Positions 14,421-54,142 of a DNA stretch of 64,000 nucleotides are shown piece by piece. Position numbers and translations under genes: made by a program. Under the pieces are notes generated by a model, which was given only the letters and a program-made list of their open reading frames with translations, did no database searches and had not been told where the DNA came from. How positions within the stretch are numbered: the stretch's first letter is position 1; each line of letters starts with the position of its first letter. Source of the DNA: Bacteroidota bacterium (GTDB lineage: Bacteria > Bacteroidota > Bacteroidia > UBA8524); NCBI GenBank assembly GCA_008933805.1, contig WBUH01000011.1, positions 53,117 to 117,116 of the forward strand, given 5' to 3'.

Positions 14421-14879
14421 TTATTTTATTCTATATACCCTGTCGGCTAGAGATATGCGCATACGCGTTGAATCAACCGTGGCAAATGCTTTTGTAATGA
14501 TAACAATGCCTGTAGATTTTAATTGCCTGATTTTAGCAATTACCTCAGGTGAAAAACTTGAGCCTACTATTCCAAAAGAATCTGTTTCATTCTCAACCTT
14601 TCCGGTATATTTATTTCTTATCCGTTGCGACGTAACAACCGTAAATGAGTCAACAGTTATGCCTGGCTCAGGCTTATAACCAACATAAACCACAAGAGTA
14701 GGGTTTCGCAACAAACTGTCTACTGTTGTGAATCCATCATTAACATTCCCTACTTTAAAGAATATTGTTGAAATATATCCAATCTTTGCTTTTGTGCTGT
14801 CTTTTTTGGTTGATTGTCCAGCAACCGTGAGCGGCATTGTTAATAGAGCTATAAAAACACACCATCTTGCCATATTCAA
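14421..14879 (-). CDS. small secreted hypothetical protein (signal peptide) flanked by two direct copies of the ~110-bp repeat
   Basis: 152 aa with N-terminus 'MNMARWCVFIALLTMPLTVAGQ'. No recognisable domain. Confidence 0.5.
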   Translation of the reverse strand: MNMARWCVFIALLTMPLTVAGQSTKKDSTKAKIGYISTIFFKVGNVNDGFTTVDSLLRNPTLVVYVGYKPEPGITVDSFTVVTSQRIRNKYTGKVENETDSFGIVGSSFSPEVIAKIRQLKSTGIVIITKAFATVDSTRMRISLADRVYRIK

Positions 14880-44569: not shown

Positions 44570-44680
44570 ACACGGGCCTGAATATAAAATTCAGGCCTTT
44601 TGCGGATTTATCCCCAATGGTTTAAAAGCATTCGAGATAAACCATTGAGCAAAACACGGGCTTTATGCCCGTTGCCACAA
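44570..44680. repeat. compound-hairpin dispersed repeat, copy 3
   Basis: 'cctgaatataaaattcaggcc', 'ccccaatggtttaaaagcattcgag...aaccattg' and 'cgggctttatgcccg' are the same modules as at 58965-59090 and 14205/14962. Confidence 0.65.
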
Positions 44681-44736
44681 CCGTTGTAAAAAACCTACAT
44701 CATAATTCAACCAAAACCCTGTATTTTGAAACCACA

Positions 44737-47163
44737 ATGCCCGCTAATACACAAGCTGCAATTAATTGGTTTTCATCGCTGGGCTGGACTCCCCAAAAGT
44801 TCCAGCAACAGGCTTGGAACGCCTATTTGCAAGGTAAAAGCGGATTGGTTAATGCCCCTACAGGCAGCGGCAAAACATACAGCCTATTGATACCCGCCCT
44901 ATTAGAAGGGCTGGCCAATGGCACACAACCAACCACCAAAGGCTTGCAGCTTATTTGGCTCACCCCTATAAGGGCATTGGCGAAAGAAATTGAACTATCT
45001 GCCCGCAGGGCTATTGCCGGGCTGGGCAGCACGTGGGAGGTGGGCATCCGCACGGGCGACACTTCTACCAAAGAGCGGACTAAGCAAGCCAAACAAATGC
45101 CGCAAATACTGATTACCACACCTGAAAGTTTACACCTGATGTTTTGCCAAAAGGGGAATAGCGAGCTATTTAAAAATCTTAAGTGTGTGGTGGCCGATGA
45201 ATGGCACGAGTTGGTAGGCAGTAAACGCGGAGTACAAGTTGAACTGGCACTCAGTCGTTTAAAAAAAACATCTAATCAACTGAAAATATGGGGAATATCT
45301 GCGACAATTGGCAACATGGACCAAGCCCGAGAGATTTTGCTGGGCACAGACTATTACCCCCAATCGGTGCTTGTAAAATCCGATATTAAAAAGAAGGTGA
45401 TTGTTGAAACCGTTTTCCCTGATGAGATTGAAAATTTCCCTTGGGCGGGTCATTTAGGAATAAAACTGCTTGAGAAGGTAGTCCCTATTATAGATGAAGG
45501 CAAAAGCACGCTACTGTTTACCAATACCCGCGCACAAAGCGAGATTTGGTACCAGCGCTTACTGGATGCCGCTCCCCACCTTTCGGGCATTATGGCTTTG
45601 CACCACGGCAGCATTGGACTTGAGCTTCGCCACTGGGTAGAGGAGCAACTGCACATAGGCAACCTAAAAGCAGTGGTTTGCACCAGCAGTCTTGATTTGG
45701 GAGTAGATTTTCGCCCTGTGGAAACCATTATCCAAATTGGCAGCCCCAAAGGTGTTGCCCGCTTTTTGCAACGGGCAGGACGAAGCGGACACCAACCGGG
45801 AAAGCCCAGTAAAATCCACTTTGTACCCACTCACTCGCTGGAGATAATAGAAGGTGCCGCCCTGCGCGAAGCCATTAAACAAGGGATGATGGAAGATCGT
45901 ATTCCCTTTGTACGCAGTTTTGATGTGTTGGTGCAATACTTGGTTACACTGGCCGTTGGCGAAGGATTCCGCGCACAAGAAGTATATGAAGAGATAACAA
46001 CCACCTTTTGCTACAGCAGCATAAGTTCCGAAGAATTTGAGTGGGTGTTGAGATTTATCGTTTCAGGGGGCGATAGCCTTCAAGCGTATGATGAATACCA
46101 CAAAGTAGTAATTGAAAACGGCTTGTTTAAGGTAGAAAGCAGGCAAATAGCCATGCGTCACCGCCTTTCTATCGGCACAATTGTGAGCGACGCCGTTTTA
46201 CGCGTAAAATTTTTAAGCGGAAAAAACATAGGCACTATTGAAGAGTCGTTTATCAGCAAATTACGTCCCGGCGACACTTTTTGGATAGCAGGCCGCAACC
46301 TTGAATTGATACAAGTGAAGGAAATGGATGTATTGGTGCGAAAATCAGACGGAAAAAAAGGGATAACGCCCAGTTGGGGCGGGGGTAGGATGCCCCTATC
46401 ATCACAGCTTTCTGAAATGTTGCGCCACAAACTGCACACCGCAAGCACCAGCAACGAGGAGGAAGTGAAACTGCTGCGTCCGTTGTTTGATATGCAAAAC
46501 AAACTCTCGATTGTTCCCAACGAAAACCAGTTTTTGATTGAGAAGTTTACTACCAATGAGGGTTGCCATGTTTATTTTTACCCTTTTGAAGGCCGTGCCG
46601 TGCATGAGGGGATGGCGGCCTTGTTGGCTTTCCGTTTGGGGCATTTTAAAAACTTCAGCTTTAGCATTGCGATGAACGACTACGGGTTTGAACTCCTTAG
46701 CGACCAAGACATTCCCATTGAGCAAGCGGTGGATAGCGATATTTTTACGCTCGACCATTTGTTTGCTGATATACGCGCCAGTATAAACGATACCGAGATG
46801 GCCCGCCGTAAGTTTGCAGAGATTTGCAAAGTAGCAGGATTGGTATTTCAGGGCTATCCGGGTAAAGGAATAAAGGAACGCCATTTGCAATCATCGTCGC
46901 AATTGTTTTTTGATGTGTTCCACGAGCATGAACCCGATAATTTATTACTGAAACAAGCCTACGAGGAGGTGTACGACTTTCAGCTGGAGCAAACCCGTAT
47001 GCAAAAGGCTATGGAGCGCATTAACCGACAAGAGATAATTATCCGGTATCCTTCACAACCTACACCGTTTTCATTCCCCATTATGGTTGACCGCCTGCGT
47101 GAAAAATACAGCAACGAGCCCATTGAGGAGCGTATCAAAAAGATGAAACTGGAGTTTGATTAG
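44737..47163 (+). CDS. Lhr-like DEXH-box ATP-dependent helicase (ligase-associated/Lhr-core type)
   Basis: 'FQQQAWNAYLQGKSGLVNAPTGSGKT' (motif I), 'VVADEWHEL' (DExH), 'LFTNTRAQSE', 'HHGSIGLELR', 'SSLDLGVDF', 'QRAGRSGH' (motif VI). The start is taken at ATG 44737 because ATG 44665 lies inside the repeat hairpin 'cgggctttatgcccg'. Confidence 0.8.
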   Translation: MPANTQAAINWFSSLGWTPQKFQQQAWNAYLQGKSGLVNAPTGSGKTYSLLIPALLEGLANGTQPTTKGLQLIWLTPIRALAKEIELSARRAIAGLGSTWEVGIRTGDTSTKERTKQAKQMPQILITTPESLHLMFCQKGNSELFKNLKCVVADEWHELVGSKRGVQVELALSRLKKTSNQLKIWGISATIGNMDQAREILLGTDYYPQSVLVKSDIKKKVIVETVFPDEIENFPWAGHLGIKLLEKVVPIIDEGKSTLLFTNTRAQSEIWYQRLLDAAPHLSGIMALHHGSIGLELRHWVEEQLHIGNLKAVVCTSSLDLGVDFRPVETIIQIGSPKGVARFLQRAGRSGHQPGKPSKIHFVPTHSLEIIEGAALREAIKQGMMEDRIPFVRSFDVLVQYLVTLAVGEGFRAQEVYEEITTTFCYSSISSEEFEWVLRFIVSGGDSLQAYDEYHKVVIENGLFKVESRQIAMRHRLSIGTIVSDAVLRVKFLSGKNIGTIEESFISKLRPGDTFWIAGRNLELIQVKEMDVLVRKSDGKKGITPSWGGGRMPLSSQLSEMLRHKLHTASTSNEEEVKLLRPLFDMQNKLSIVPNENQFLIEKFTTNEGCHVYFYPFEGRAVHEGMAALLAFRLGHFKNFSFSIAMNDYGFELLSDQDIPIEQAVDSDIFTLDHLFADIRASINDTEMARRKFAEICKVAGLVFQGYPGKGIKERHLQSSSQLFFDVFHEHEPDNLLLKQAYEEVYDFQLEQTRMQKAMERINRQEIIIRYPSQPTPFSFPIMVDRLREKYSNEPIEERIKKMKLEFD

Positions 47164-48467
47164 CTCCAAAACCATCGGGAATAAATCCTGATGCTATTGA
47201 TAGCAGGTTAGGGTCTGACCGCAACCCGTCATTCCCAACTTGATTGGGAATCTCACTTTTCGACCCCTACACGATTAATTATTAGGCCGACATGCCCATA
47301 GTCGCCTTCCCCTGTAGGGAAGGAAAAGTTAAAGGCTGTCTGCAAAACAGATAGTCAGGAAGGGGGTCAAAGGGTTGCGCGCGGCTTCCCTCCTTGCTAA
47401 AGCCTGTGGGAGGGAAAGGAGGGACTGAGGGAGGTGTGTTACCTAAACCCATCGGGAATAAATCCCGATGCTATTGATAGAATGTTGAGCACTCTATCTA
47501 TAGCGGCAGGTCTGCGAACCTGCCGACCAAAGACCCCATCCCGATTAATTCTTAGCCCGACATTCCCACACTCGCCTTCCCCTGAAAAGTTAAAAGCTGT
47601 CTGCAAAACAAATAGCCAGGAAGGGGTTAGGTTTTTAACTCGCCCCCGAAACTTCCCTTAGCTAGACTTTCAAATAGTCGCCCCTCTCTATATTTAGAGA
47701 GGAAAAGTTTGTTAGTCGCACAATTATCAATCATTCTGGGGTGAGTTAAAATTCTTTTCACGACCACCCCTAACCCTTCCTTTTCCCTACGCTCATACTT
47801 CGACAAGCTCAGTATTGATGCCTTGCAAAGGAGGGGAACAACCGCACAGGCTCACTAACCCAAAATGGTGGCAGCTATAAAAAATATCATTCGGCGTTCA
47901 ATGTCCCCCTCAATGAAGGGGTAGGGGGAGGATTTTTCCCCCTCCTGCACCTCCCAAAGGGAGGAGATTGGAGTGCTAATTGTGCCCATCAAAGCAATCC
48001 GTTTGTTTACCCTCATCCCAGAAAAGCACAGCTTCGCCCGAATATTAGCCAATCCCTTCTCCACATGGAGAAGGGCGACGTGCAAGTGTGGTTAGAGAAC
48101 TGGTTGCTAAGATGAGGCAAAAGCCACCACGACCACCCCTAGCCCCTCCTAAAAACAGGAGGGGAACAACCGCACAGGCTCACCAGCCCAATAATAACGG
48201 CAGTTATTAAAACTCGTTCGGCGTTCAAGGGCTATGCGCGGGGCTTCCCTCCTTGGATAAGGAGGGACAGAGGGAGGTTTGAACACTGGTTGCGGGGATG
48301 AGGCGGCCCAGCGCGTCGCATTTCCCCTCCTACGGTGGGCAGTGGGTGGTTTAGGAGGGGACTAAGGGGTGGTCAGAATAGTGGAAACGTGGGCTATTCC
48401 ACAATTATCAAATGGTCAGGGGTGAGTTAAAACAGGCACAAGCAGGACGCTAGCGGAGGTTATGTTT
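47164..48467. repeat. 1.3-kb non-coding mosaic of at least 5 short repeat families in direct and inverted copies, rich in G/C hairpins
   Basis: There is a ~275-bp tandem duplication (47164-47439 vs 47440-47650: 'ccatcgggaataaatccYgatgctattgatag...gccgacatNcccaNaNtcgccttcccctg...aaagNtgtctgcaaaacaNatagNcaggaagggg'). 'cacgaccacccctaRcccYtcc...aggaggggaacaaccgcacaggctcacYaRcccaa...ttcggcgttcaa' occurs at 47757 and 48123, with an inverted copy 'ggaggggactaaggggtggtcag' at 48350. 'gcgcggcttccctccttg...ggagggaNagagggaggt' occurs at 47380 and 48237. 'caattatcaaNNNtcNggggtgagttaaaa' occurs at 47722 and 48400. Confidence 0.75.
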
Positions 48468-49646
48468 CTATTGTTCGTTTTGCTTAATTTCTTTTTTTAC
48501 TTGATCAATAAACATACGAGGGTTCCAACCTTTTATTAAACCTTCTAATATATAAGAGTCAAACATAGTAAGCCCTAAACCACTAATACTTGGTGGGATA
48601 GGTAGACTACTTAAAGAAGATACATATTCCCCCAATGCATACATACCGAATGTTTTCATAAACTTACCCTTACCTTCTTCAAAAAAACCCTTTTTATTTG
48701 CTATTACATCTATGTATTCTCTTACTATTTCTTCTGGGGGTACAGTAATGGATTTAGCGTTTATCCATTTTCTGTACTCTTTTATGTTTTTATTATTCCG
48801 TAATTCAAACGCCCTATTAAAAGGTATCTTTTTTTGTAAAAAAAGAGAATAAATATCAGGTAAGGTTTCTTGCTTCAGAATTTCACCCGTGCCTTCAGAA
48901 ACACCTAATGCACTTCTAATGTGTCTAATACTTTCGTCTGTTAGCCGATAATAATTATATTTATTATAACTCTTATACTTCTTTTCAGCTAATACGGTTG
49001 TTTCTAATATTTGTGACCCTAAATCTAATAAGATGGTTCTTTGTGTGCTATCCAATTCTTCCGCAGCTTTTTCAAAAGGCAAATCAAACTCTGCTAGCCG
49101 GTTATTGTTATAAGCATCTAATACAATGCTCACTGCATTAGAAGAGATATTTTTTTCTGGTAGTTTATACTGCTTAAGCGCTTTTCTCTTGAAAATTCTT
49201 TTCCTGTCTCTATGAAGACCCGTAATTTTTAAAAGAAGGTTGTCAATATTTTTTTCAGGGTCACTATCGTTTTCTGTAAAACTCCCAGCTATTAATGGCG
49301 GAGTTCCTATTGCCGCCGTGTAATCAATCGGTCCATTAGCGTCCTCCTGATGACCTGTTACTGCTGCAATAACTGGTGTCCACAAAACAAGTTGAATAAT
49401 ATCTTTCTCCAAAAGCTCTTCAACTTTATTTAATCCTAATTCGCGGATAAGAAAATATAATGATAAATTATCTCGTTCTACTTTTATAGCTATTTTGTCA
49501 AATAATAGGAACTGTTCGAAAAGTAGTGCTAATAAACGTTGCTTAACTATTTCTTCTGATGGCGAGTTTTGGGGTATTGGGGCGATTTTTTGTATGAATT
49601 GTTGCCCATAAAGTTCAACTTCTGGATTAAAAACTATATCTGCCAT
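48468..49646 (-). CDS. orphan hypothetical protein in a strongly AT-rich (low-GC) gene, likely horizontally acquired
   Basis: 392-aa ORF. Its nucleotide composition is visibly far more AT-rich than all neighbouring genes (for example 'tttcttttttacttgatcaataaacatacgag...ttttattaaaccttctaatatataagag'). No signal peptide and no motif I can assign. It is bounded by the 1.3-kb repeat mosaic on its 3' side. Confidence 0.55.
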   Translation of the reverse strand: MADIVFNPEVELYGQQFIQKIAPIPQNSPSEEIVKQRLLALLFEQFLLFDKIAIKVERDNLSLYFLIRELGLNKVEELLEKDIIQLVLWTPVIAAVTGHQEDANGPIDYTAAIGTPPLIAGSFTENDSDPEKNIDNLLLKITGLHRDRKRIFKRKALKQYKLPEKNISSNAVSIVLDAYNNNRLAEFDLPFEKAAEELDSTQRTILLDLGSQILETTVLAEKKYKSYNKYNYYRLTDESIRHIRSALGVSEGTGEILKQETLPDIYSLFLQKKIPFNRAFELRNNKNIKEYRKWINAKSITVPPEEIVREYIDVIANKKGFFEEGKGKFMKTFGMYALGEYVSSLSSLPIPPSISGLGLTMFDSYILEGLIKGWNPRMFIDQVKKEIKQNEQ

Positions 49647-49752
49647 TATTTTATAAAGACTTCCATGTAAAAATACAAAATTCCCCCGATAATCTCCCCT
49701 CCCTCACCCAAATCTCACCCCACAATTACAAAAACTTTTTACCTTCGCCAGT

Positions 49753-52700
49753 ATGAAAATACTGCTGCCTGTTTTTCTTTCATTTATTACAATAAGCGCA
49801 TTCGCACAAGACAAACCCAAGTGGGACGTTAGCAACCCGCCGGGGCCGTATAAAGAAGTTACCATCACCACCCACGAGGGTACGTGGATGAACCTCGACG
49901 TGAGCCCCGATGGCAACACCCTTGTATTTGATATGCTGGGCGATATATACAGCCTGCCCGTTGCGGGCGGCACAGCCGCGCTGTTACGCGGCGGTCATGC
50001 CTTTGAGGTGCAGCCCCGCTTTAGTCCCGATGGTAAAAAAATATGCTTTACCAGCGATGCAGGCGGCGGCGATAACGTGTGGGTGATGGATGCCGACGGT
50101 AAAAACGCCAAACAAATTACCCAAGAAGATTTCCGTTTGCTAAACAACCCCGTGTGGACACCCGACGGGCAATACATTATTGCGCGCAAGCATTTTACCA
50201 GCAGCCGTTCATTAGGCGCGGGCGAAATGTGGATGTACCACATCACTGGCGGCAGCGGCATACAGCTTACCAAACGCAAAAACGACCAGCAGGACGTGAA
50301 CGAGCCAGCCCTTTCGCCCGATGGCCGCTACCTGTACTTTAGCGAGGATATGTACCCCGGCGGCTATTTCCAGTACAACAAAGACCCCAACAGCCAGATA
50401 TACATCATTCGCCGTTACGACCGCGAAACAGGCGAATTGCGAGACCTTATCAGCGGGCCCGGCGGTGCTTGCCGTCCCCAAGCCAGTCCTGACGGAAAAC
50501 AACTGGCTTTTGTGCGCCGTGTACGCACCCAAACCGTGCTGTACGTGCACAACCTGCAAACGGGGCAACAAATCCCCGTGTTTGATAAACTAAGCAAAGA
50601 CCAGCAAGAAGCATGGGCCATTTTCGGTGTGTACACAGGCTACAACTGGCTGCCCGATAACATCCACATCGTTATTTGGGCGCAGGGCAAGCTGTGGAAG
50701 ATAAACACCCAAACCCAACAAGCGGCTGAAATTCCGTTTACGGCCACCGCCACGCACCGTATACACGATGCGGTGAAATTCAGGCAGGAAGTGTCGCCCT
50801 CCACCTTCGAGGCCAAAATGATACGCCACGCCATCACCTCTCCCGACGGGAAAACCCTTGTGTTCTCTGCCGTAGGTTATTTATGGAAAAAAGAATTGCC
50901 CAACGGAACGCCTGTGCGCCTCTCTACCCAAGCCGATGCGTTTGAATTTGAGCCTGTTTTCAGTCCCGATAATAAAAAACTGTTATACGTTACGTGGAAC
51001 GATACCACCACGGGTGCTATTTGGGAATACGAGTTTAAAAAAGGAAAAACCAAAAAAATAACTACTGAAAAAGGTATTTTCCGCGAGCCCGCTTACTCGT
51101 CTGACGGTAAAAAAATAGTGTACCGCAAAGAAGGTGGCAACGACCACCAAGGCTTTACCTATTGCGAAAATACTGGCATATATATAGCCGATACCGATGG
51201 TAAAAACGTACAGTTAGTTAGCGAAGACGGGAGCAATCCTGTTTTTACTGCCGATGGAAAAAATATTTATTACCAACAGGGTAAAAAGTATTTCGAGGTG
51301 GATTTATCGGGCAATAACAAAAAAGAATTATTTACTTCAGAGTACGGAAAAGACTACACCCCAAGTCCCGACGGAAAATGGATAGCCTTTACCGATTTGC
51401 ACAAAGCCTACATTATCCCTGTTCCAAAATCGGGCAAAACCTTTGATTTGAACCGCAACACCAAAGCCGTGCCCGTTTCGCAAGTAGCACGCGATGCCGG
51501 TTTCAACCTGCATTGGAGCGGCGATAGCAAAAAACTGCATTATACATTGGGCGAAGAATATTTTACGGTAGAAATTAAAAACCGTTTCCTTTTTGTAGAG
51601 GGTGCAGCCGATAGCATTGTACCCGTTGATACCGTTGGGATAAAAATAGGTTTGCAATTAAAAACCGATAAACCCGCAGGTACAAAACTGCTTACCAATG
51701 CCCGCATAATCACCGTTGATAATAATAACAACGTGATAGAAAACGGGTATATTTTAATTAAAGACAATATTATCACCGATATAGGCTTGATGACCGATGT
51801 TTGGAAAACCAGCCCCAAAGCGGATGATACCATTGATTGCAGCGGCAAAACCATTATGCCCGGTTTGGTGGATGTACACGCGCATTTGGGTACTTTCCGT
51901 CAAGGCTTGCACCCGCAAAAACACTGGCCATACTATGCAAGTCTGGCATACGGAATCACCACCACGCACGACCCCAGCAGTAACAGCGAAATGGTATTTA
52001 CCCAAAGCGAGATGGTGAAATATGGCAGTATGATTGGTCCCCGTGTATACTCAACAGGGACGATATTGTACGGTGCCGACGGCGATTTTAAGGCCGTGGT
52101 AAATAGTTTAGAGGATGCTAAATCGGCGATACGTAGGACTAAAGCATTGGGTGCTTTTTCGGTGAAAAGCTACAACCAACCTCGCCGCGAGCAACGCCAG
52201 CAGGTGATTGAAGCAGCCCGTCAGTTGAGCATCATGGTAGTACCCGAAGGCGGTTCGTTCTTCTACCACAACATGAGCATGATTTTAGACGGCCATACGG
52301 GCATTGAACACAACATACCCGTTGCTCCTGCATATAATGACGTAATACAACTGTGGAGTGCCAGCCAAACGGGATACACGCCCACGCTGATTGTAAACTA
52401 TGGCGGCGTAAACGGCGAATATTACTGGTACCAGCACACCAACGTGTGGGAAAAGGAACGTTTGCTCAACTTTACCCCTCGCGGCATTATTGACGAGCGC
52501 AGCCGCCACCGCACCATGATACCCGAAGAAGAATACGAAAACGGGCACATTTTGGTAAGTAAGTCGTGCAAACAACTAAGCGATAGCGGTGTGAAGGTGA
52601 ATTTGGGCAGTCATGGACAGATACAAGGCATTGGCGCACATTGGGAACTATGGATGCTGGCACAGGGCGGTATGAGTGCGATGGAAGCCATACGCAGTGC

Positions 52701-53010
52701 TACGATGAACGGTGCGCAATACATCGGCATGGGCGACCAAATAGGCAGCCTTGAACCCGGTAAACTGGCCGATTTGCTGATTATGGATAAAAACCCGCTG
52801 GATACGATTACTAATACCGAAAGCCTTCGCTACACTATGATAAACGGCCGTTTATACGATTGCAATACGCTGAACGAAGTAAACAGCCCTAAAAAACGCG
52901 CACCGTTTTGGTGGGAAAACAATGGCTACAACGCCACCTTCCATTGGCACGAAGAAACCAACAGCTTTATGCCCACCCAATGCGGTTGCGGCGGCCATCA
53001 CGGGGAGTGA
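49753..53010 (+). CDS. secreted TolB-like PD40 beta-propeller repeats fused to a C-terminal metal-dependent amidohydrolase domain
   Basis: Signal peptide 'MKILLPVFLSFITISAFAQ'. Repeated 'SPDG(K/N)xLVF...D...Y' PD40 units are present (about 10). The C-terminal 'GKTIMPGLVDVHAHLG...' (HxH metal site) plus the later 'VNLGSHGQIQG' and 'ADLLIMDKNPL' are amidohydrolase-family motifs. 1085 aa. Confidence 0.8.
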   Translation: MKILLPVFLSFITISAFAQDKPKWDVSNPPGPYKEVTITTHEGTWMNLDVSPDGNTLVFDMLGDIYSLPVAGGTAALLRGGHAFEVQPRFSPDGKKICFTSDAGGGDNVWVMDADGKNAKQITQEDFRLLNNPVWTPDGQYIIARKHFTSSRSLGAGEMWMYHITGGSGIQLTKRKNDQQDVNEPALSPDGRYLYFSEDMYPGGYFQYNKDPNSQIYIIRRYDRETGELRDLISGPGGACRPQASPDGKQLAFVRRVRTQTVLYVHNLQTGQQIPVFDKLSKDQQEAWAIFGVYTGYNWLPDNIHIVIWAQGKLWKINTQTQQAAEIPFTATATHRIHDAVKFRQEVSPSTFEAKMIRHAITSPDGKTLVFSAVGYLWKKELPNGTPVRLSTQADAFEFEPVFSPDNKKLLYVTWNDTTTGAIWEYEFKKGKTKKITTEKGIFREPAYSSDGKKIVYRKEGGNDHQGFTYCENTGIYIADTDGKNVQLVSEDGSNPVFTADGKNIYYQQGKKYFEVDLSGNNKKELFTSEYGKDYTPSPDGKWIAFTDLHKAYIIPVPKSGKTFDLNRNTKAVPVSQVARDAGFNLHWSGDSKKLHYTLGEEYFTVEIKNRFLFVEGAADSIVPVDTVGIKIGLQLKTDKPAGTKLLTNARIITVDNNNNVIENGYILIKDNIITDIGLMTDVWKTSPKADDTIDCSGKTIMPGLVDVHAHLGTFRQGLHPQKHWPYYASLAYGITTTHDPSSNSEMVFTQSEMVKYGSMIGPRVYSTGTILYGADGDFKAVVNSLEDAKSAIRRTKALGAFSVKSYNQPRREQRQQVIEAARQLSIMVVPEGGSFFYHNMSMILDGHTGIEHNIPVAPAYNDVIQLWSASQTGYTPTLIVNYGGVNGEYYWYQHTNVWEKERLLNFTPRGIIDERSRHRTMIPEEEYENGHILVSKSCKQLSDSGVKVNLGSHGQIQGIGAHWELWMLAQGGMSAMEAIRSATMNGAQYIGMGDQIGSLEPGKLADLLIMDKNPLDTITNTESLRYTMINGRLYDCNTLNEVNSPKKRAPFWWENNGYNATFHWHEETNSFMPTQCGCGGHHGE

Positions 53011-53039
53011 TTTATTTATGATTTTTGACTTGTTGATTT

Positions 53040-53388
53040 GGAGATTTAATTCCCGTCTGTGCGTCATTGCGAACGGGTTTTAAAATAATTATTGAATTAT
53101 AAATAAAAGATTAGTGAAGCAATCCCAATGAAACGATACAAACGGATTGCTTCGTCAGCCGAAGACGGCCTCCCCGCAATGACGACTCGGCGTTCGTCAT
53201 TACAAGCGTCAAAATCAATTATACCCGAAACCAAAAAATAATAGCGAAGCAATCTTATACTATCTTTACAAAAAGATTGCTTCGGCAAGCTACGCAAGCC
53301 TCGCAATGACGATAGTTGCTCGAAAAGACAGAAACTTTGCGTCATTGCGAGGAGGTACGACGAAGCAATCCGTTGCCACAGAAATAAA
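53040..53388. repeat. cluster of short palindromic repeat units (core 'ggattgcttcgtcagccgaagacggcctcc[t/c]cgcaatgacg...cgtcattgcgag') upstream of the GIY-YIG gene
   Basis: Repeated 'gattgcttcg' / 'cgaagcaatc' inverted pairs occur at 53111, 53146, 53237, 53273 and 53361. 'cgcaatgacg'/'cgtcattgcg' hairpins occur at 53176/53201, 53301/53340 and 53061. Confidence 0.7.
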
Positions 53389-53700
53389 ATGAAACGTGTC
53401 GGCTATACTTACATTCTAACAAATGCTAATAACACCACATTATATGTTGGGGTTACTGCTGATTTGATGAAAAGAATGGAGGAGCATATTAATAAGAAGT
53501 TTCCCAATAGTTTTTCAGCAAAATACAATTTAACAACGCTGGTTTGGTTTGAAGGGTTTAACCACATAGAAGAAGCCATTGCAAGAGAAAAACAATTAAA
53601 AGCAGGGAGTAGAAAACGAAAAGAGGAGTTGATAAATACTATAAATCCCAAGTGGGAAAATTTATACCTCAAGATTATTTCGGGGGAGATTGAGGTTTAA
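53389..53700 (+). CDS. GIY-YIG nuclease family protein (small, stand-alone)
   Basis: 'GYTYILTNANNTTLYVGVTADLMKRMEEH' matches the GIY...YIG motif and spacing of small GIY-YIG (UPF0213-like) proteins. 103 aa, embedded in the palindromic repeat cluster. Confidence 0.7.
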   Translation: MKRVGYTYILTNANNTTLYVGVTADLMKRMEEHINKKFPNSFSAKYNLTTLVWFEGFNHIEEAIAREKQLKAGSRKRKEELINTINPKWENLYLKIISGEIEV

Positions 53701-54070
53701 CTTTGGGATTGCTTCGTCGCCCGAAGACGGCCTCCTCGCAATGACGAACTTTGGCCGCCACCTCGTCATTGCGAACAGGTAATTTCAAAAAGCAGGAAAT
53801 TATATATTTTGGTTAGTGAAGCAGTCTTTTGAAATAATTCATTGGGATTGCTTCGTCAGCCGAAGACGGCTTCCTCGCAATGACGGCTCGGCGTTCGTCA
53901 TTGCGAGCGGCAAAACCAATTATACCTGAAAACCAAAAAATAATAGCGAAGCAATCTTTAACGACCTTTACAAACGGATTGCTTCGTTGACCTAAGAAGG
54001 TCTCCTCGCAATGAACGAACGCCGAGCAGGCTTAACAATTAGCCTATAACCCTCCCCGCAATTACCGTAA
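53701..54070. repeat. continuation of the palindromic repeat cluster downstream of the GIY-YIG gene (at least 3 more units)
   Basis: 'gggattgcttcgtcgcccgaagacggcctcctcgcaatgacgaac...cgtcattgcgaac' at 53705. 'gggattgcttcgtcagccgaagacggcttcctcgcaatgacggctcggcgttcgtcattgcgagcg' at 53843. 'ggattgcttcgttgacctaagaaggtctcctcgcaatgaacgaacgccgag' at 53966. 'tagcgaagcaatc' at 53944. Confidence 0.7.
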
Positions 54071-54142
54071 AACCAAGTCTTTAGTAACAAGCAGTTGAAC
54101 ATTACCCCATTTTGCGCTATTTTTGAGGGCATATAGATTTTT

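What the first reader, a model, noticed from the sequence alone, without database searches (positions are those of the whole stretch)
48468..49646. AT-rich orphan gene next to the repeat mosaic: a likely horizontally acquired single-gene island, candidate defence or abortive-infection function
This 392-aa ORF has a base composition clearly lower in GC than every flanking gene. It lacks a signal peptide or any family motif I recognise. Core genes flank it (a Lhr helicase upstream, beyond the repeat mosaic, and a PD40-amidohydrolase gene downstream). Compositionally foreign singletons next to repeat-rich junctions are where Abi and other single-gene anti-phage effectors are typically found. I cannot assign a fold from sequence alone.
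Basis: partly seen in the sequence, partly recalled or inferred. Interest (0 to 1): 0.7.

Follow-up and report, generated by a model that had tools for sequence, protein, structure and literature searches.

The report
Swappable AT-rich defence-hotspot cargo gene
This AT-rich gene is a real, horizontally acquired single-gene cassette sitting in a strain-variable slot where close relatives carry other phage-defence-type genes, and it belongs to a large uncharacterised protein family with no known fold, which makes it a good but untested candidate for a new anti-phage gene.

Summary
ORF 48468-49646 (-) encodes 392 aa. Its GC (0.333) and GC3 (0.247) are the lowest of 42 long ORFs, about 3.2 SD below the mean. 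It is under purifying selection (dN/dS 0.08).

The key result is a cassette swap. Window ~48452-49687 sits between a conserved repeat element and the PD40-amidohydrolase gene. In a relative with 94% nt identity (L104), the same slot holds an AT-rich overlapping two-gene pair whose first gene matches PD-T4-10_A (1e-13). In another relative (L013) it holds an unrelated AT-rich gene with weak restriction-nuclease-like matches. None of 160 other amidohydrolase loci has the gene in that slot.

Family members lie near defence-type genes in 7 of 12 chromosomal contexts. They also sit beside TA modules on Acinetobacter plasmids, and next to ShosTA in a P2-like prophage hotspot.

Most members carry a C-terminal glycine-zipper segment. 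The target's subclade has lost it but keeps the conserved core (E44, N60, R283, R292, W294, Y311).

Verdict: horizontally acquired hotspot cargo is shown. Defence function is well supported by context but untested. The mechanism is unknown.

The parts
48468..49646 (-). Target ORF, 392 aa, a member of a large unnamed protein family. It has an alpha/beta plus helical core with conserved E44, N60, E260, R283, R292, W294, Y311, D363 and P376. Its C-terminal glycine-zipper insertion is degenerate.
   Evidence: dN/dS 0.079 against the L001 ortholog
48452..49687 (.). The swapped cassette, about 1.24 kb and AT-rich. It holds the ORF plus 16 bp after the stop codon and 41 bp before the start codon. Unrelated cargo replaces it in L104 and L013; L001 has the same cargo.
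   Evidence: blastn breakpoints; junction alignments
48276..48451 (.). Conserved left-flank repeat element. It contains the hairpin CCCCTCCTA...TAGGAGGGG and the module CACAATTAT..GGGGTGAGTTAAAA. It abuts the cargo slot in the window, L104, L013 and L001.
   Evidence: module repeats D6-D10
47164..48275 (.). Remainder of the 1.3-kb intergenic repeat mosaic, made of duplicated modules of 20-53 nt. It is shorter in the relatives (about 0.43 kb in L104, about 0.33 kb in L013). The genes beyond it differ in every genome, so it is a rearrangement junction.
   Evidence: the CCYTCC..GGARGG hairpins occur only here in the window
49688..49752 (.). Conserved right flank, starting CGATAATCTCCCC.... This is the intergenic region upstream of the amidohydrolase gene. 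Homology with L013 and L104 resumes at the same base, 49687/49688.
49753..53010 (+). PD40 beta-propeller + amidohydrolase gene, 1085 aa. It is the conserved anchor gene of the slot and has orthologs across Saprospiraceae-like Bacteroidota.
44665..47163 (+). Ligase-associated DEXH (Lhr-core) helicase. It neighbours the slot in this genome only and is not part of the hotspot.
   Evidence: TIGR04121, 1108.9 bits; absent from L013, L104 and L001 near the slot

Best explanation
The gene is a functional, horizontally acquired single-gene cargo cassette in a strain-variable hotspot. The hotspot is bounded by a repeat element on one side and by the promoter region of a conserved PD40-amidohydrolase gene on the other. 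Different lineages of the same Saprospiraceae-like clade carry different AT-rich conflict-type cargo at the same breakpoints: this gene, a PD-T4-10-like overlapping gene pair, or a gene with weak restriction-nuclease-like matches. The cargo was most likely exchanged by homologous recombination in the conserved flanks, since the cassette carries no recombinase. The protein belongs to a large, unnamed, patchily distributed family found in Bacteroidota, Pseudomonadota, plasmids and a P2-like prophage hotspot. That family most likely acts as a stand-alone anti-phage or abortive-infection effector. It has a compact alpha/beta plus helical core with a near-invariant polar cluster (E44, N60, R283, R292, W294, Y311), which would sense or process a ligand. 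In most members a roughly 28-residue uncharged glycine-zipper hairpin is inserted before the last helix. On activation that hairpin would insert into and compromise the membrane. The target's subclade has lost the zipper, so here any activity must rest on the conserved core.

Shown: the gene is real and under selection; its composition is atypical; the cassette is swapped at shared breakpoints; the family is large; the family's contexts are as listed.

Inferred: the defence role; recombination as the exchange route; the membrane mechanism and the role of the core.
For: Real gene under selection: dN/dS 0.079. Family size: 975 representatives with E <= 1e-3. Atypical composition.

Hotspot: homology with L104 (94% nt over the amidohydrolase) and with L013 (85%) stops at window ~48451 and ~48418 on the left. 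It resumes at 49687 in both. The L104 insert has GC 0.27-0.33 and two overlapping ORFs, the first matching PD-T4-10_A at 1e-13. PD-T4-10 is a validated overlapping two-gene TA-like Abi system (PMC9519451). The L013 cargo has GC 0.289 and weak NucS_C, HSDR_N_2 and REase_II matches.

Absent from the slot elsewhere.

Family contexts: defence-type domains lie within 8 kb in 7 of 12 chromosomal contexts. These domains are GmrSD/HEPN, nSTAND3/KAP, DUF4011-helicase/PIN/PLD-SNF2, Schlafen/HEPN with an integrase, SMODS-SLATT/TIR, HEPN_Apea/nSTAND3 and SIR2_2/DUF4145. Two more contexts have TA genes only. Five Acinetobacter plasmids carry the gene beside RelE/ParE, recombinase and Tn3/IS genes. A P2-like prophage has the order portal, ShosT (5e-42), ShosA (3e-106), family member. 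That is the gpQ-gpA cos-proximal defence hotspot described in PMC9122126.

No conserved partner gene appears in any context, and the cassette margins of 16 and 41 bp leave no room for a second gene.

Glycine zipper: 103 of 139 members have at least 2 small-xxx-small motifs in a median 28-aa uncharged stretch. Some members match C19orf12 or Gly-zipper Pfam models. NCBI names one member 'glycine zipper family protein'. In the canonical model (pTM 0.81) the zipper is a low-confidence helical excursion from a confident core.
Against: There is no experimental evidence of phage protection. PADLOC has no model for the family, and no current DefenseFinder model set could be run. Three of 12 chromosomal contexts show no conflict genes at all. 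I computed no background rate, so the enrichment is qualitative. The family is rare in viral contigs (5 of 2.9 million) and absent from the sequenced-phage collection. The target itself lacks the glycine zipper: no motifs, a PIPP-containing 22-aa stretch, and S343 and L348 in place of conserved glycines. So the membrane mechanism cannot be transferred to it. The fold has no informative structural neighbour, so the proposed sensing or enzymatic role of the core is conjecture.
Confidence: 0.5

Rival explanations
1. The gene is mobile-element cargo with a conflict-related role other than anti-phage defence. Examples are an addiction or stabilisation factor, an inter-MGE competition factor or an anti-defence factor. 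It would travel with defence islands, plasmids and prophages because those are the general landing sites for accessory genes.
For: It occurs on Acinetobacter plasmids directly beside RelE/ParE modules, recombinases and transposons. It lies beside Phd/YoeB and Gp49/HTH pairs. An IS (rve) lies next to it in L001. Hotspots also carry non-defence cargo according to PMC9122126.
Against: It is a single gene with no conserved partner, so it does not have a classical TA architecture. Its strongest and most frequent neighbours are dedicated defence genes. It persists in chromosomal slots that have no MGE backbone (window; L008).
Confidence: 0.2
2. The gene is an accessory membrane-associated protein with no role in genetic conflict, for example in envelope or stress physiology. 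Its AT-richness and patchy distribution would simply reflect ordinary horizontal transfer of niche genes.
For: Glycine-zipper segments are common in ordinary membrane and stress proteins, and weak Pfam matches to Gly-zipper_Omp, YMGG and C19orf12 occur in a few members. Three contexts are purely metabolic or housekeeping.
Against: The same slot holds a PD-T4-10-like pair and a nuclease-like gene in sister genomes. Seven of 12 contexts include defence genes. One member sits in the P2 hotspot next to ShosTA. There is no signal peptide and no co-occurring envelope genes.
Confidence: 0.15
3. A mechanistic rival within the defence reading: the N-terminal alpha/beta domain is a very divergent TIR/SLOG/nucleoside-deoxyribosyltransferase-like Rossmannoid enzyme. 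It would deplete NAD+ or process nucleotides using the near-invariant E44. On this view the zipper is accessory, which would explain why the target can do without it.
Confidence: 0.07
4. The target copy is a decaying, non-functional remnant of the family. It would have lost its effector segment, the zipper, and be on its way out.
For: The zipper is degenerate in the target, P0001 and P0002, and three otherwise conserved Gly positions (188, 343, 348) are substituted.
Against: dN/dS is 0.079 over dS 0.44 against the L001 ortholog. The reading frame is intact at full length in three lineages at 63-93% identity. All conserved core residues are retained.
Confidence: 0.05

Closest known systems
Anti-phage 'hotspots' between conserved anchor genes, such as the P2 gpA-gpQ and P4 hotspots (Rousset et al. 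2022, PMC9122126)
   Same: It is a small locus of about 1-2 kb with high cargo turnover between conserved flanks. The breakpoints are identical across genomes. The alternative cargos are recognisable defence or TA-like genes. A family member itself sits in a P2-like prophage gpQ-proximal hotspot next to ShosTA.
   Different: Here the hotspot is chromosomal, in an uncultured Saprospiraceae-like Bacteroidota lineage. Its anchors are a repeat element and a PD40-amidohydrolase gene, not phage genes. No phage or satellite backbone and no integrase are present in the window.
PD-T4-10, a two-gene TA-like abortive-infection system (Vassallo et al. 2022, PMC9519451)
   Same: It occupies the very same slot in the closest relative, L104: the first gene matches PD-T4-10_A at 1e-13, the ORFs overlap and the insert is AT-rich.
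   Different: It is unrelated in sequence to the target. The target is a single gene with no partner. The second gene in L104 does not match PD-T4-10_B.
Glycine-zipper membrane segments (Pfam Gly-zipper_Omp PF13488, Gly-zipper_YMGG PF13441, C19orf12-like PF20721)
   Same: Most family members carry an uncharged stretch of about 28 aa with small-xxx-small repeats near the C-terminus. A few reach these Pfam models. NCBI labels one member 'glycine zipper family protein'.
   Different: The zipper is only a short insertion in a roughly 350-aa globular core that no library recognises. The target itself has lost the zipper and matches none of these models.
Single-protein defence effectors with a membrane-disrupting module, such as SLATT-type or TM-bearing Abi effectors
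   Same: It is a stand-alone gene in defence islands, and it has a predicted soluble domain plus a hydrophobic C-terminal module in canonical members. One member lies directly after a SMODS-SLATT pair.
   Different: No SLATT, Abi or other PADLOC or Pfam model matches. Membrane insertion is only inferred, and the module is absent in the target.
TIR/SLOG-type Rossmannoid nucleotide-processing effectors
   Same: The N-terminal domain is a three-layer alpha/beta fold. Weak TIR, LOG and NDT structural matches recur. A near-invariant Glu is present.
   Different: The scores are at noise level and there is no sequence-profile match. The Glu is in an atypical position.

Membership tests
Defence-hotspot cargo (variable locus between conserved anchors, in the sense of PMC9122126) | Conserved flanks with shared breakpoints across related genomes | tested here: met
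   The right breakpoint is at window 49687/49688 in both L013 and L104. The left breakpoint falls within the same repeat element, at ~48418 and ~48451.
Defence-hotspot cargo (variable locus between conserved anchors, in the sense of PMC9122126) | High turnover: unrelated cargo in closely related genomes | tested here: met
   There are three unrelated cargos among four relatives. The window and L001 carry the target. L013 carries a 379-aa ORF. L104 carries a 129-aa plus 396-aa pair. BLASTP and HMM searches show no relationship between them.
Defence-hotspot cargo (variable locus between conserved anchors, in the sense of PMC9122126) | Recognised defence systems among the alternative cargos | tested here: met
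   The L104 ORF at 4353-4742 matches PD-T4-10_A (E 1e-13, 49 bits). The L013 cargo matches only weakly: REase_II 1.4e-3 and NucS_C 2.7e-4, below the curated cut-off.
Defence-hotspot cargo (variable locus between conserved anchors, in the sense of PMC9122126) | Anti-phage activity of the cargo | not testable with these tools
   This requires plaque or efficiency-of-plating assays.
Known or candidate defence protein families (PADLOC-DB v2.0.0) | Significant HMM match to the protein core | tested here: not met
   The target has no match at E <= 1. Of 41 distant members, only one matches, and only in its SEC-C zinc-motif tail at residues 397-428.
Glycine-zipper proteins (PF13488, PF13441, PF20721) | HMM match, or small-xxx-small repeats in an uncharged stretch of at least 20 aa | tested here: not met
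   The target has no Pfam match and no zipper motifs, with a Gly fraction of 0.09. At the family level, 103 of 139 members have at least 2 motifs, and 4 of 41 distant members reach a Pfam glycine-zipper or C19orf12 model.
TIR-domain NADase effectors | Pfam TIR or TIR_2 profile match | tested here: not met
   No match in the target or in 41 distant members.
TIR-domain NADase effectors | Significant structural similarity to TIR domains, with the catalytic Glu in an equivalent position | tested here: inconclusive
Type II toxin-antitoxin or PD-T4-10-like two-gene modules | Two adjacent or overlapping co-oriented genes inside the cassette | tested here: not met
   The cassette 48452-49687 contains one ORF, with margins of 16 and 41 bp. 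No partner gene is conserved across 12 contexts.
Integron gene cassette | An attC-type imperfect palindrome at the cassette 3' end, a single precise recombination point, and an integron integrase nearby | tested here: inconclusive
   No inverted repeat of at least 20 nt was found in 47100-48500. The left breakpoints differ, at ~48418 and ~48451. No attC covariance model or integrase search was run.
Phage or prophage gene (PHROGs, INPHARED) | Match to a phage protein family or to sequenced phage genomes | tested here: not met
   PHROGs gave no match. tblastn against 50,697 phage records gave no match for the target or for the prophage-borne member. Only 5 IMG/VR contigs carry the family.

The most novel reading that the evidence does not exclude
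The family, about 1000 clusters at 50% identity across Bacteroidota and Pseudomonadota, on plasmids and in a P2-type prophage hotspot, could be a previously unrecognised single-protein anti-phage system. It would be built on a fold with no solved or annotated relative. Its conserved E/N/R/R/W/Y core would carry an autonomous sensing or effector activity, and the glycine-zipper hairpin would be an optional, detachable membrane-attack module. The zipper-less copy in this window would then be a natural 'core-only' variant that could be used to separate the two activities.
Probability: 0.3. Interest if true: 0.65.

Novelty: new variant of a known kind. Interest (0 to 1): 0.5.

Why it matters
If the family is confirmed as defensive, it would add a widespread single-gene system with an unrecognised fold to the anti-phage repertoire. 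It would also come from Bacteroidota lineages that are poorly represented in defence screens. The locus is also a cleanly delimited chromosomal hotspot: it has one conserved anchor gene, one repeat element, and three unrelated AT-rich cargos at the same breakpoints among genomes with 85-94% nucleotide identity. That gives an anchor-based way to mine more cargo in uncultured Saprospiraceae-like bacteria. It also provides a natural pair for experiments, the zipper-bearing and zipper-less versions. The claim is still modest, because candidate defence genes in hotspots are now found routinely and many fail in assays.

Tried and rejected
(1) Sequence libraries. Pfam, NCBIfam, PHROGs and PADLOC gave nothing for the target.

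(2) PADLOC hits in the distant-member set (PDC-S12, E1-E2, E2). All trace to one protein's SEC-C zinc-motif tail and were rejected as uninformative.

(3) PDB sequence-profile searches with 44 and 139 sequences. Only noise and low-complexity Gly-rich matches (prion, OmpA) came up.

(5) A profile-to-protein hhalign of the family against the L013 cargo failed internally. It was replaced by BLASTP and local hmmsearch, both negative.

(6) Test for more recent transfer of the cargo than of the flank. The cargo is more similar than the amidohydrolase between the window and L001 (dS 0.44 against 0.76; identity at 4-fold sites 72.8% against 64.5%). But Fisher p = 0.12, so I make no claim.

(7) RNA genes, tRNA integration sites and promoter or terminator signals around the cassette. 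There is no tRNA. There is only a sub-threshold Whalefall-1 hit. Sigma-70-type sites are no more frequent than in shuffled sequence, and Bacteroidota promoters are not covered by that tool.

(8) A 9-bp direct repeat, CCACAATTA, occurs on both flanks of the cassette in the window. It is not conserved in the right flank of L013, so I treat it as possibly chance.

(9) Phage records and E. coli genomes hold no copy.

(10) A literature search for a described glycine-zipper defence effector found nothing relevant.
Full report
OBSERVATION. Its composition is clearly deviant. GC is 0.333 and GC3 is 0.247, the lowest of 42 non-overlapping ORFs of at least 150 aa in the window (mean GC 0.436, sd 0.031; mean GC3 0.438, sd 0.059), which is about 3.2-3.3 sd below the mean. 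The sliding GC profile falls to 0.32-0.36 only across the gene and returns to 0.44-0.54 on both sides. Codon-usage distance from the other genes (Karlin B = 0.493) ranks 2nd of 42, z = 2.7. The flanking genes are as described. Upstream are DnaG primase and a ligase-associated DEXH (Lhr-core) helicase (TIGR04121, 1109 bits against a cut-off of 850). Then comes a 1.3-kb intergenic repeat mosaic. On the other side, 106 bp away and divergent, is a 1085-aa PD40 beta-propeller + amidohydrolase protein.

IS IT A REAL GENE, AND IS IT AN ORPHAN? It is real. Against its 93%-identical ortholog on a metagenome contig (L001), dN/dS is 0.079 at dS 0.44. The neighbouring amidohydrolase gives a similar 0.057. 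It is not an orphan. A word-indexed search found 43 full-length homologs at 30-93% identity, mostly from Bacteroidota (Ferruginibacter, Chitinophaga) plus a Pseudomonas group. An exhaustive HMM search of 1.84 billion cluster representatives found 975 with E <= 1e-3, 338 with E <= 1e-10 and 155 with E <= 1e-30. Almost all are single-domain proteins of 380-450 aa. The exact protein is NCBI KAB2915188.1, 'hypothetical protein', from a Bacteroidetes MAG. Every source name in the family is 'hypothetical', except one Pseudomonas peli member that NCBI calls 'glycine zipper family protein'. Neither the target nor 41 distant members match the core region in Pfam, NCBIfam, PHROGs or PADLOC. The only PADLOC hits (PDC-S12, E2) came from one member's SEC-C zinc-motif tail and are irrelevant.

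THE DECISIVE RESULT: A CASSETTE SWAP AT A HOTSPOT. I used the adjacent amidohydrolase as an anchor and fetched 80 loci from species-representative genomes and 80 from metagenomes. The window's lineage is an uncultured Saprospiraceae-like 'Bacteroidia bacterium'. Its closest chromosomes are OZ252261.1 (L013, amidohydrolase 92% aa) and OZ244977.1 (L014, 76%). Next come Saprospiraceae at about 65%. The metagenome contig OFDN01000122.1 (L104) is closer still, at 97% aa and 94% nt. None of the 80 genome loci contains the target gene (tblastn). None of the 56 upstream slots examined holds a family member (hmmsearch with two family profiles). Among the 80 metagenome loci, only one has a family member, a remote one in a different position (L109).

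At the nucleotide level, homology between the window and L013 covers window 49687-53050 and pieces of the repeat mosaic up to about 48411-48418. Homology with L104 covers 49687-53008 and the repeat element 48276-48451 (junction alignments). Between these shared flanks the genomes differ as follows:

- Window: the target gene.
- L013: an unrelated 379-aa ORF on the same strand. It has GC 0.289 and GC3 0.198 against 0.40 in the flanks. Its C-terminal matches to PD-(D/E)xK nuclease models are weak: NucS_C 2.7e-4, HSDR_N_2 5e-3 and PADLOC REase_II 1.4e-3, all below the curated cut-offs.
- L104: a 1.7-kb insert with GC 0.27-0.33 and two overlapping ORFs on the opposite strand, of 129 and 396 aa. 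The first matches PADLOC PD-T4-10_A at E = 1e-13.
- L001: the same cargo as the window. Beyond the shared repeat element it has an rve transposase.

PD-T4-10 is an experimentally validated toxin-antitoxin-like abortive-infection system with two overlapping ORFs (PMC9519451).

The swapped unit in the window is therefore about 48452-49687: the ORF plus 16 bp and 41 bp. The genes beyond the repeat mosaic differ in every genome. The window has dnaG and the helicase, L013 has glyA and a globin, and L104 has a PorV-like gene, a pyridine-nucleotide oxidoreductase and a ferredoxin. So the mosaic is a rearrangement junction and the helicase is not a conserved neighbour. The cassette carries no recombinase and there is no tRNA nearby. 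Exchange by homologous recombination in the conserved flanks is the simplest route, but that is an inference.

I tested whether the cargo is younger than the flank. The cargo is more similar than the amidohydrolase between the window and L001 (identity at 4-fold sites 72.8% against 64.5%), but the difference is not significant (Fisher p = 0.12). I make no such claim.

WHERE ELSE THE FAMILY LIVES. Twelve distinct chromosomal contexts of homologs were read together with precomputed Pfam hits. Seven have dedicated defence-type genes within 8 kb:

- L001: GmrSD_N plus HEPN.
- L002, Chitinophaga filiformis: nSTAND3-PUA, two KAP NTPases and IS66 fragments.
- L003: an 1801-aa DUF4011 helicase, PIN_12 and PLD-SNF2.
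- L010: an integrase island with Schlafen/AlbA_2, HEPN and HATPase genes, and a 71-aa HTH gene 13 bp upstream of the homolog.
- L011/L012: SLATT_4 + SMODS immediately upstream and a TIR_2 protein immediately downstream.
- L096: HEPN_Apea and nSTAND3.
- L098: an 1184-aa SIR2_2 protein and DUF4145.

Two contexts have only toxin-antitoxin pairs (Phd/YoeB; Gp49/HTH). Three have no conflict genes: a lone insert beside the rplM-rpsI-rpsB-tsf genes, a pyrimidine-catabolism cluster, and a Pseudomonas-type locus at contig ends. No partner gene is conserved across these contexts.

The gene is usually poorer in GC than its surroundings, for example 0.43 against 0.60 in the Pseudomonas-type locus and 0.34 against 0.41 in L008. 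Five Acinetobacter plasmids carry a homolog next to RelE/ParE modules, recombinases and Tn3 or IS elements.

Sequenced phages have none. Five IMG/VR contigs do. One of them, L102, is a P2-like prophage with a P2-family capsid, a GPO scaffold, a terminase and a portal. After the portal come ShosT (5e-42), ShosA (3e-106) and then the family member, at the edge of the provirus call. Rousset et al. showed that the cos-proximal region between gpQ (portal) and gpA is the anti-phage hotspot of P2-like phages, and they validated DprA-containing systems there (PMC9122126). This association is qualitative, because I computed no background rate.

WHAT THE PROTEIN LOOKS LIKE. The AlphaFold2 model of the target has mean pLDDT 80.8 and is confident for residues 1-320. 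The model of a canonical member, P0004, built from 139 sequences, has pLDDT 84.6 and pTM 0.81. Both models show the same layout:

- an N-terminal alpha/beta domain (strands at roughly 4-7, 51-56, 84-88, 91-94 and 119-122, with intervening helices);
- a helical domain (about 167-320);
- a low-confidence segment;
- a final helix that is again confident, so it packs back onto the core.

Across 139 members the near-invariant residues (target numbering) are E44 (94%), N60 (90%), G71, R283 (98%), R292 (97%), W294 (99%), Y311 (96%), D363 (88%) and P376 (99%).

The low-confidence segment is an uncharged, Gly/Ala-rich stretch with a median length of 28 aa. It has at least 2 small-xxx-small-xxx-small motifs in 103 of 139 members, which makes it a glycine zipper. 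A few members reach the Pfam C19orf12, Gly-zipper_Omp or Gly-zipper_YMGG models. In the target's subclade (target, P0001, P0002) this insertion is shortened and degenerate. It has no zipper motifs and a PIPP-containing 22-aa stretch, and S343 and L348 replace glycines that 81-82% of members conserve.

HOW IT MOST LIKELY WORKS.

Shown: the gene is a selected, compositionally foreign, single-gene cassette in a hotspot whose alternative cargos are defence-type, and the family is a stand-alone accessory gene of defence islands, plasmids and a prophage hotspot.

Inferred (probability about 0.5): it is a stand-alone anti-phage or abortive-infection protein.

Further inferred (low confidence): the conserved polar cluster in the core binds or processes a ligand or trigger, and in canonical members the glycine-zipper hairpin then inserts into the membrane and kills or arrests the cell. 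Because the target lacks the zipper but keeps the core under strong purifying selection, the core probably has an activity of its own.

The recurring weak TIR, LOG and NDT-like hits allow a divergent nucleotide-processing enzyme as a long shot (about 0.07). However, E44 lies at the C-terminal end of helix 2, before strand 2, which is not the usual active-site side of such folds (my knowledge of these folds; not tested on coordinates).

Rivals:
- non-defence MGE cargo, such as an addiction, competition or anti-defence factor (0.2);
- an ordinary accessory membrane or stress protein (0.15);
- a decaying remnant (0.05, contradicted by dN/dS).

COMPARISON WITH WHAT IS KNOWN. The locus behaves like the anchor-gene hotspots described for P2 and P4 (PMC9122126), but it is chromosomal, in an uncultured Bacteroidota lineage, with a repeat element and a PD40-amidohydrolase gene as anchors. 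The protein is not a member of any PADLOC-2023, Pfam, NCBIfam or PHROGs family. It is not a TA pair like the PD-T4-10-type cargo that replaces it in L104. The target itself does not meet the glycine-zipper definition that most of its family meets. TIR membership fails on sequence and is inconclusive on structure.

NOVELTY AND SCORE. The kind of thing, an AT-rich defence-type cargo in a variable hotspot, is well known. The protein family and its fold are uncharacterised. I rate it 'new variant of a known kind' with interest 0.5. It is a well-documented lead, with a clean three-allele hotspot and natural zipper-bearing and zipper-less variants. But candidate defence genes of this sort are now found in large numbers, function is untested and the mechanism is speculative. 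The most novel reading not excluded is a new single-protein defence family on a new fold with a detachable membrane module. I give it probability about 0.3, and interest about 0.65 if true.

Noticed in passing
window 47164-48451: The 1.3-kb intergenic 'repeat mosaic' is built from duplicated modules of 20-53 nt at 76-95% identity. It contains short GC-rich hairpins of the type CCYTCC..GGARGG, which occur nowhere else in the 64-kb window. Relatives have shorter versions (about 0.43 kb in L104, about 0.33 kb in L013). The genes beyond it differ in every genome, so it marks a rearrangement junction. No Rfam family reaches threshold; Whalefall-1 scores 21.9 bits against a gathering score of 37 at 48243-48279.
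   Followed up: partly
window 14421-14879 (-): This is a second compositionally foreign ORF of 152 aa. It has GC 0.370 and GC3 0.288, and the highest codon-usage distance in the window (B = 0.58, rank 1 of 42). It has no Pfam match. It may be another horizontally acquired gene.
   Followed up: partly
window 53000-54100; L104 9257-12323: The region downstream of the amidohydrolase is also unstable. The window has internally repeated segments around 53062-53309 and 53706-53883. Relative to the window, L104 carries extra segments of about 0.58 kb and 1.66 kb. A 103-aa GIY-YIG gene lies at 53389-53700. This may be a second variable junction on the other side of the anchor gene.
   Followed up: no
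L104 4353-5925: The alternative cargo in the closest relative pairs a PD-T4-10_A-like 129-aa protein (1e-13) with an overlapping 396-aa protein. The second protein does not match PD-T4-10_B and has only a weak DUF6575 match (3e-4). This suggests an antitoxin-like module recombined with a different toxin or effector.
   Followed up: partly
L013 8755-9894 (-): The alternative cargo in OZ252261.1 is a 379-aa, extremely AT-rich ORF (GC 0.289, GC3 0.198). It has only sub-threshold PD-(D/E)xK-type matches (NucS_C, HSDR_N_2, REase_II). It may be a solitary nuclease-type defence gene of unknown family.
   Followed up: partly
L109 6609-7724 (+): In a distant relative (amidohydrolase 64% identical), a remote member of the target's family (E = 3.6e-16 to the distant-member profile) lies about 1.4 kb downstream of the amidohydrolase ortholog. 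This could be coincidence, or a hint that the neighbourhood of this anchor gene is a recurrent landing site.
   Followed up: no
window 44665-47163 (+): The Lhr-core helicase scores as the ligase-associated DNA-damage-response equivalog (TIGR04121). Here, however, it is flanked by a divergent dnaG on one side and the repeat mosaic on the other. From my own knowledge of this system, it usually comes with a ligase, an exonuclease and PdeM. I did not check whether those genes lie elsewhere in the window.
   Followed up: no
L102 5815-9209: In a P2-like prophage the gpQ-proximal hotspot holds a complete ShosTA system (ShosT 5e-42, ShosA 3e-106) followed by the family member. In L010 a 71-aa HTH_3 gene sits 13 bp upstream of the homolog. 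In L096 a 458-aa unknown gene ends 1 bp before the homolog. These are lineage-specific companions that might act as regulators.
   Followed up: partly
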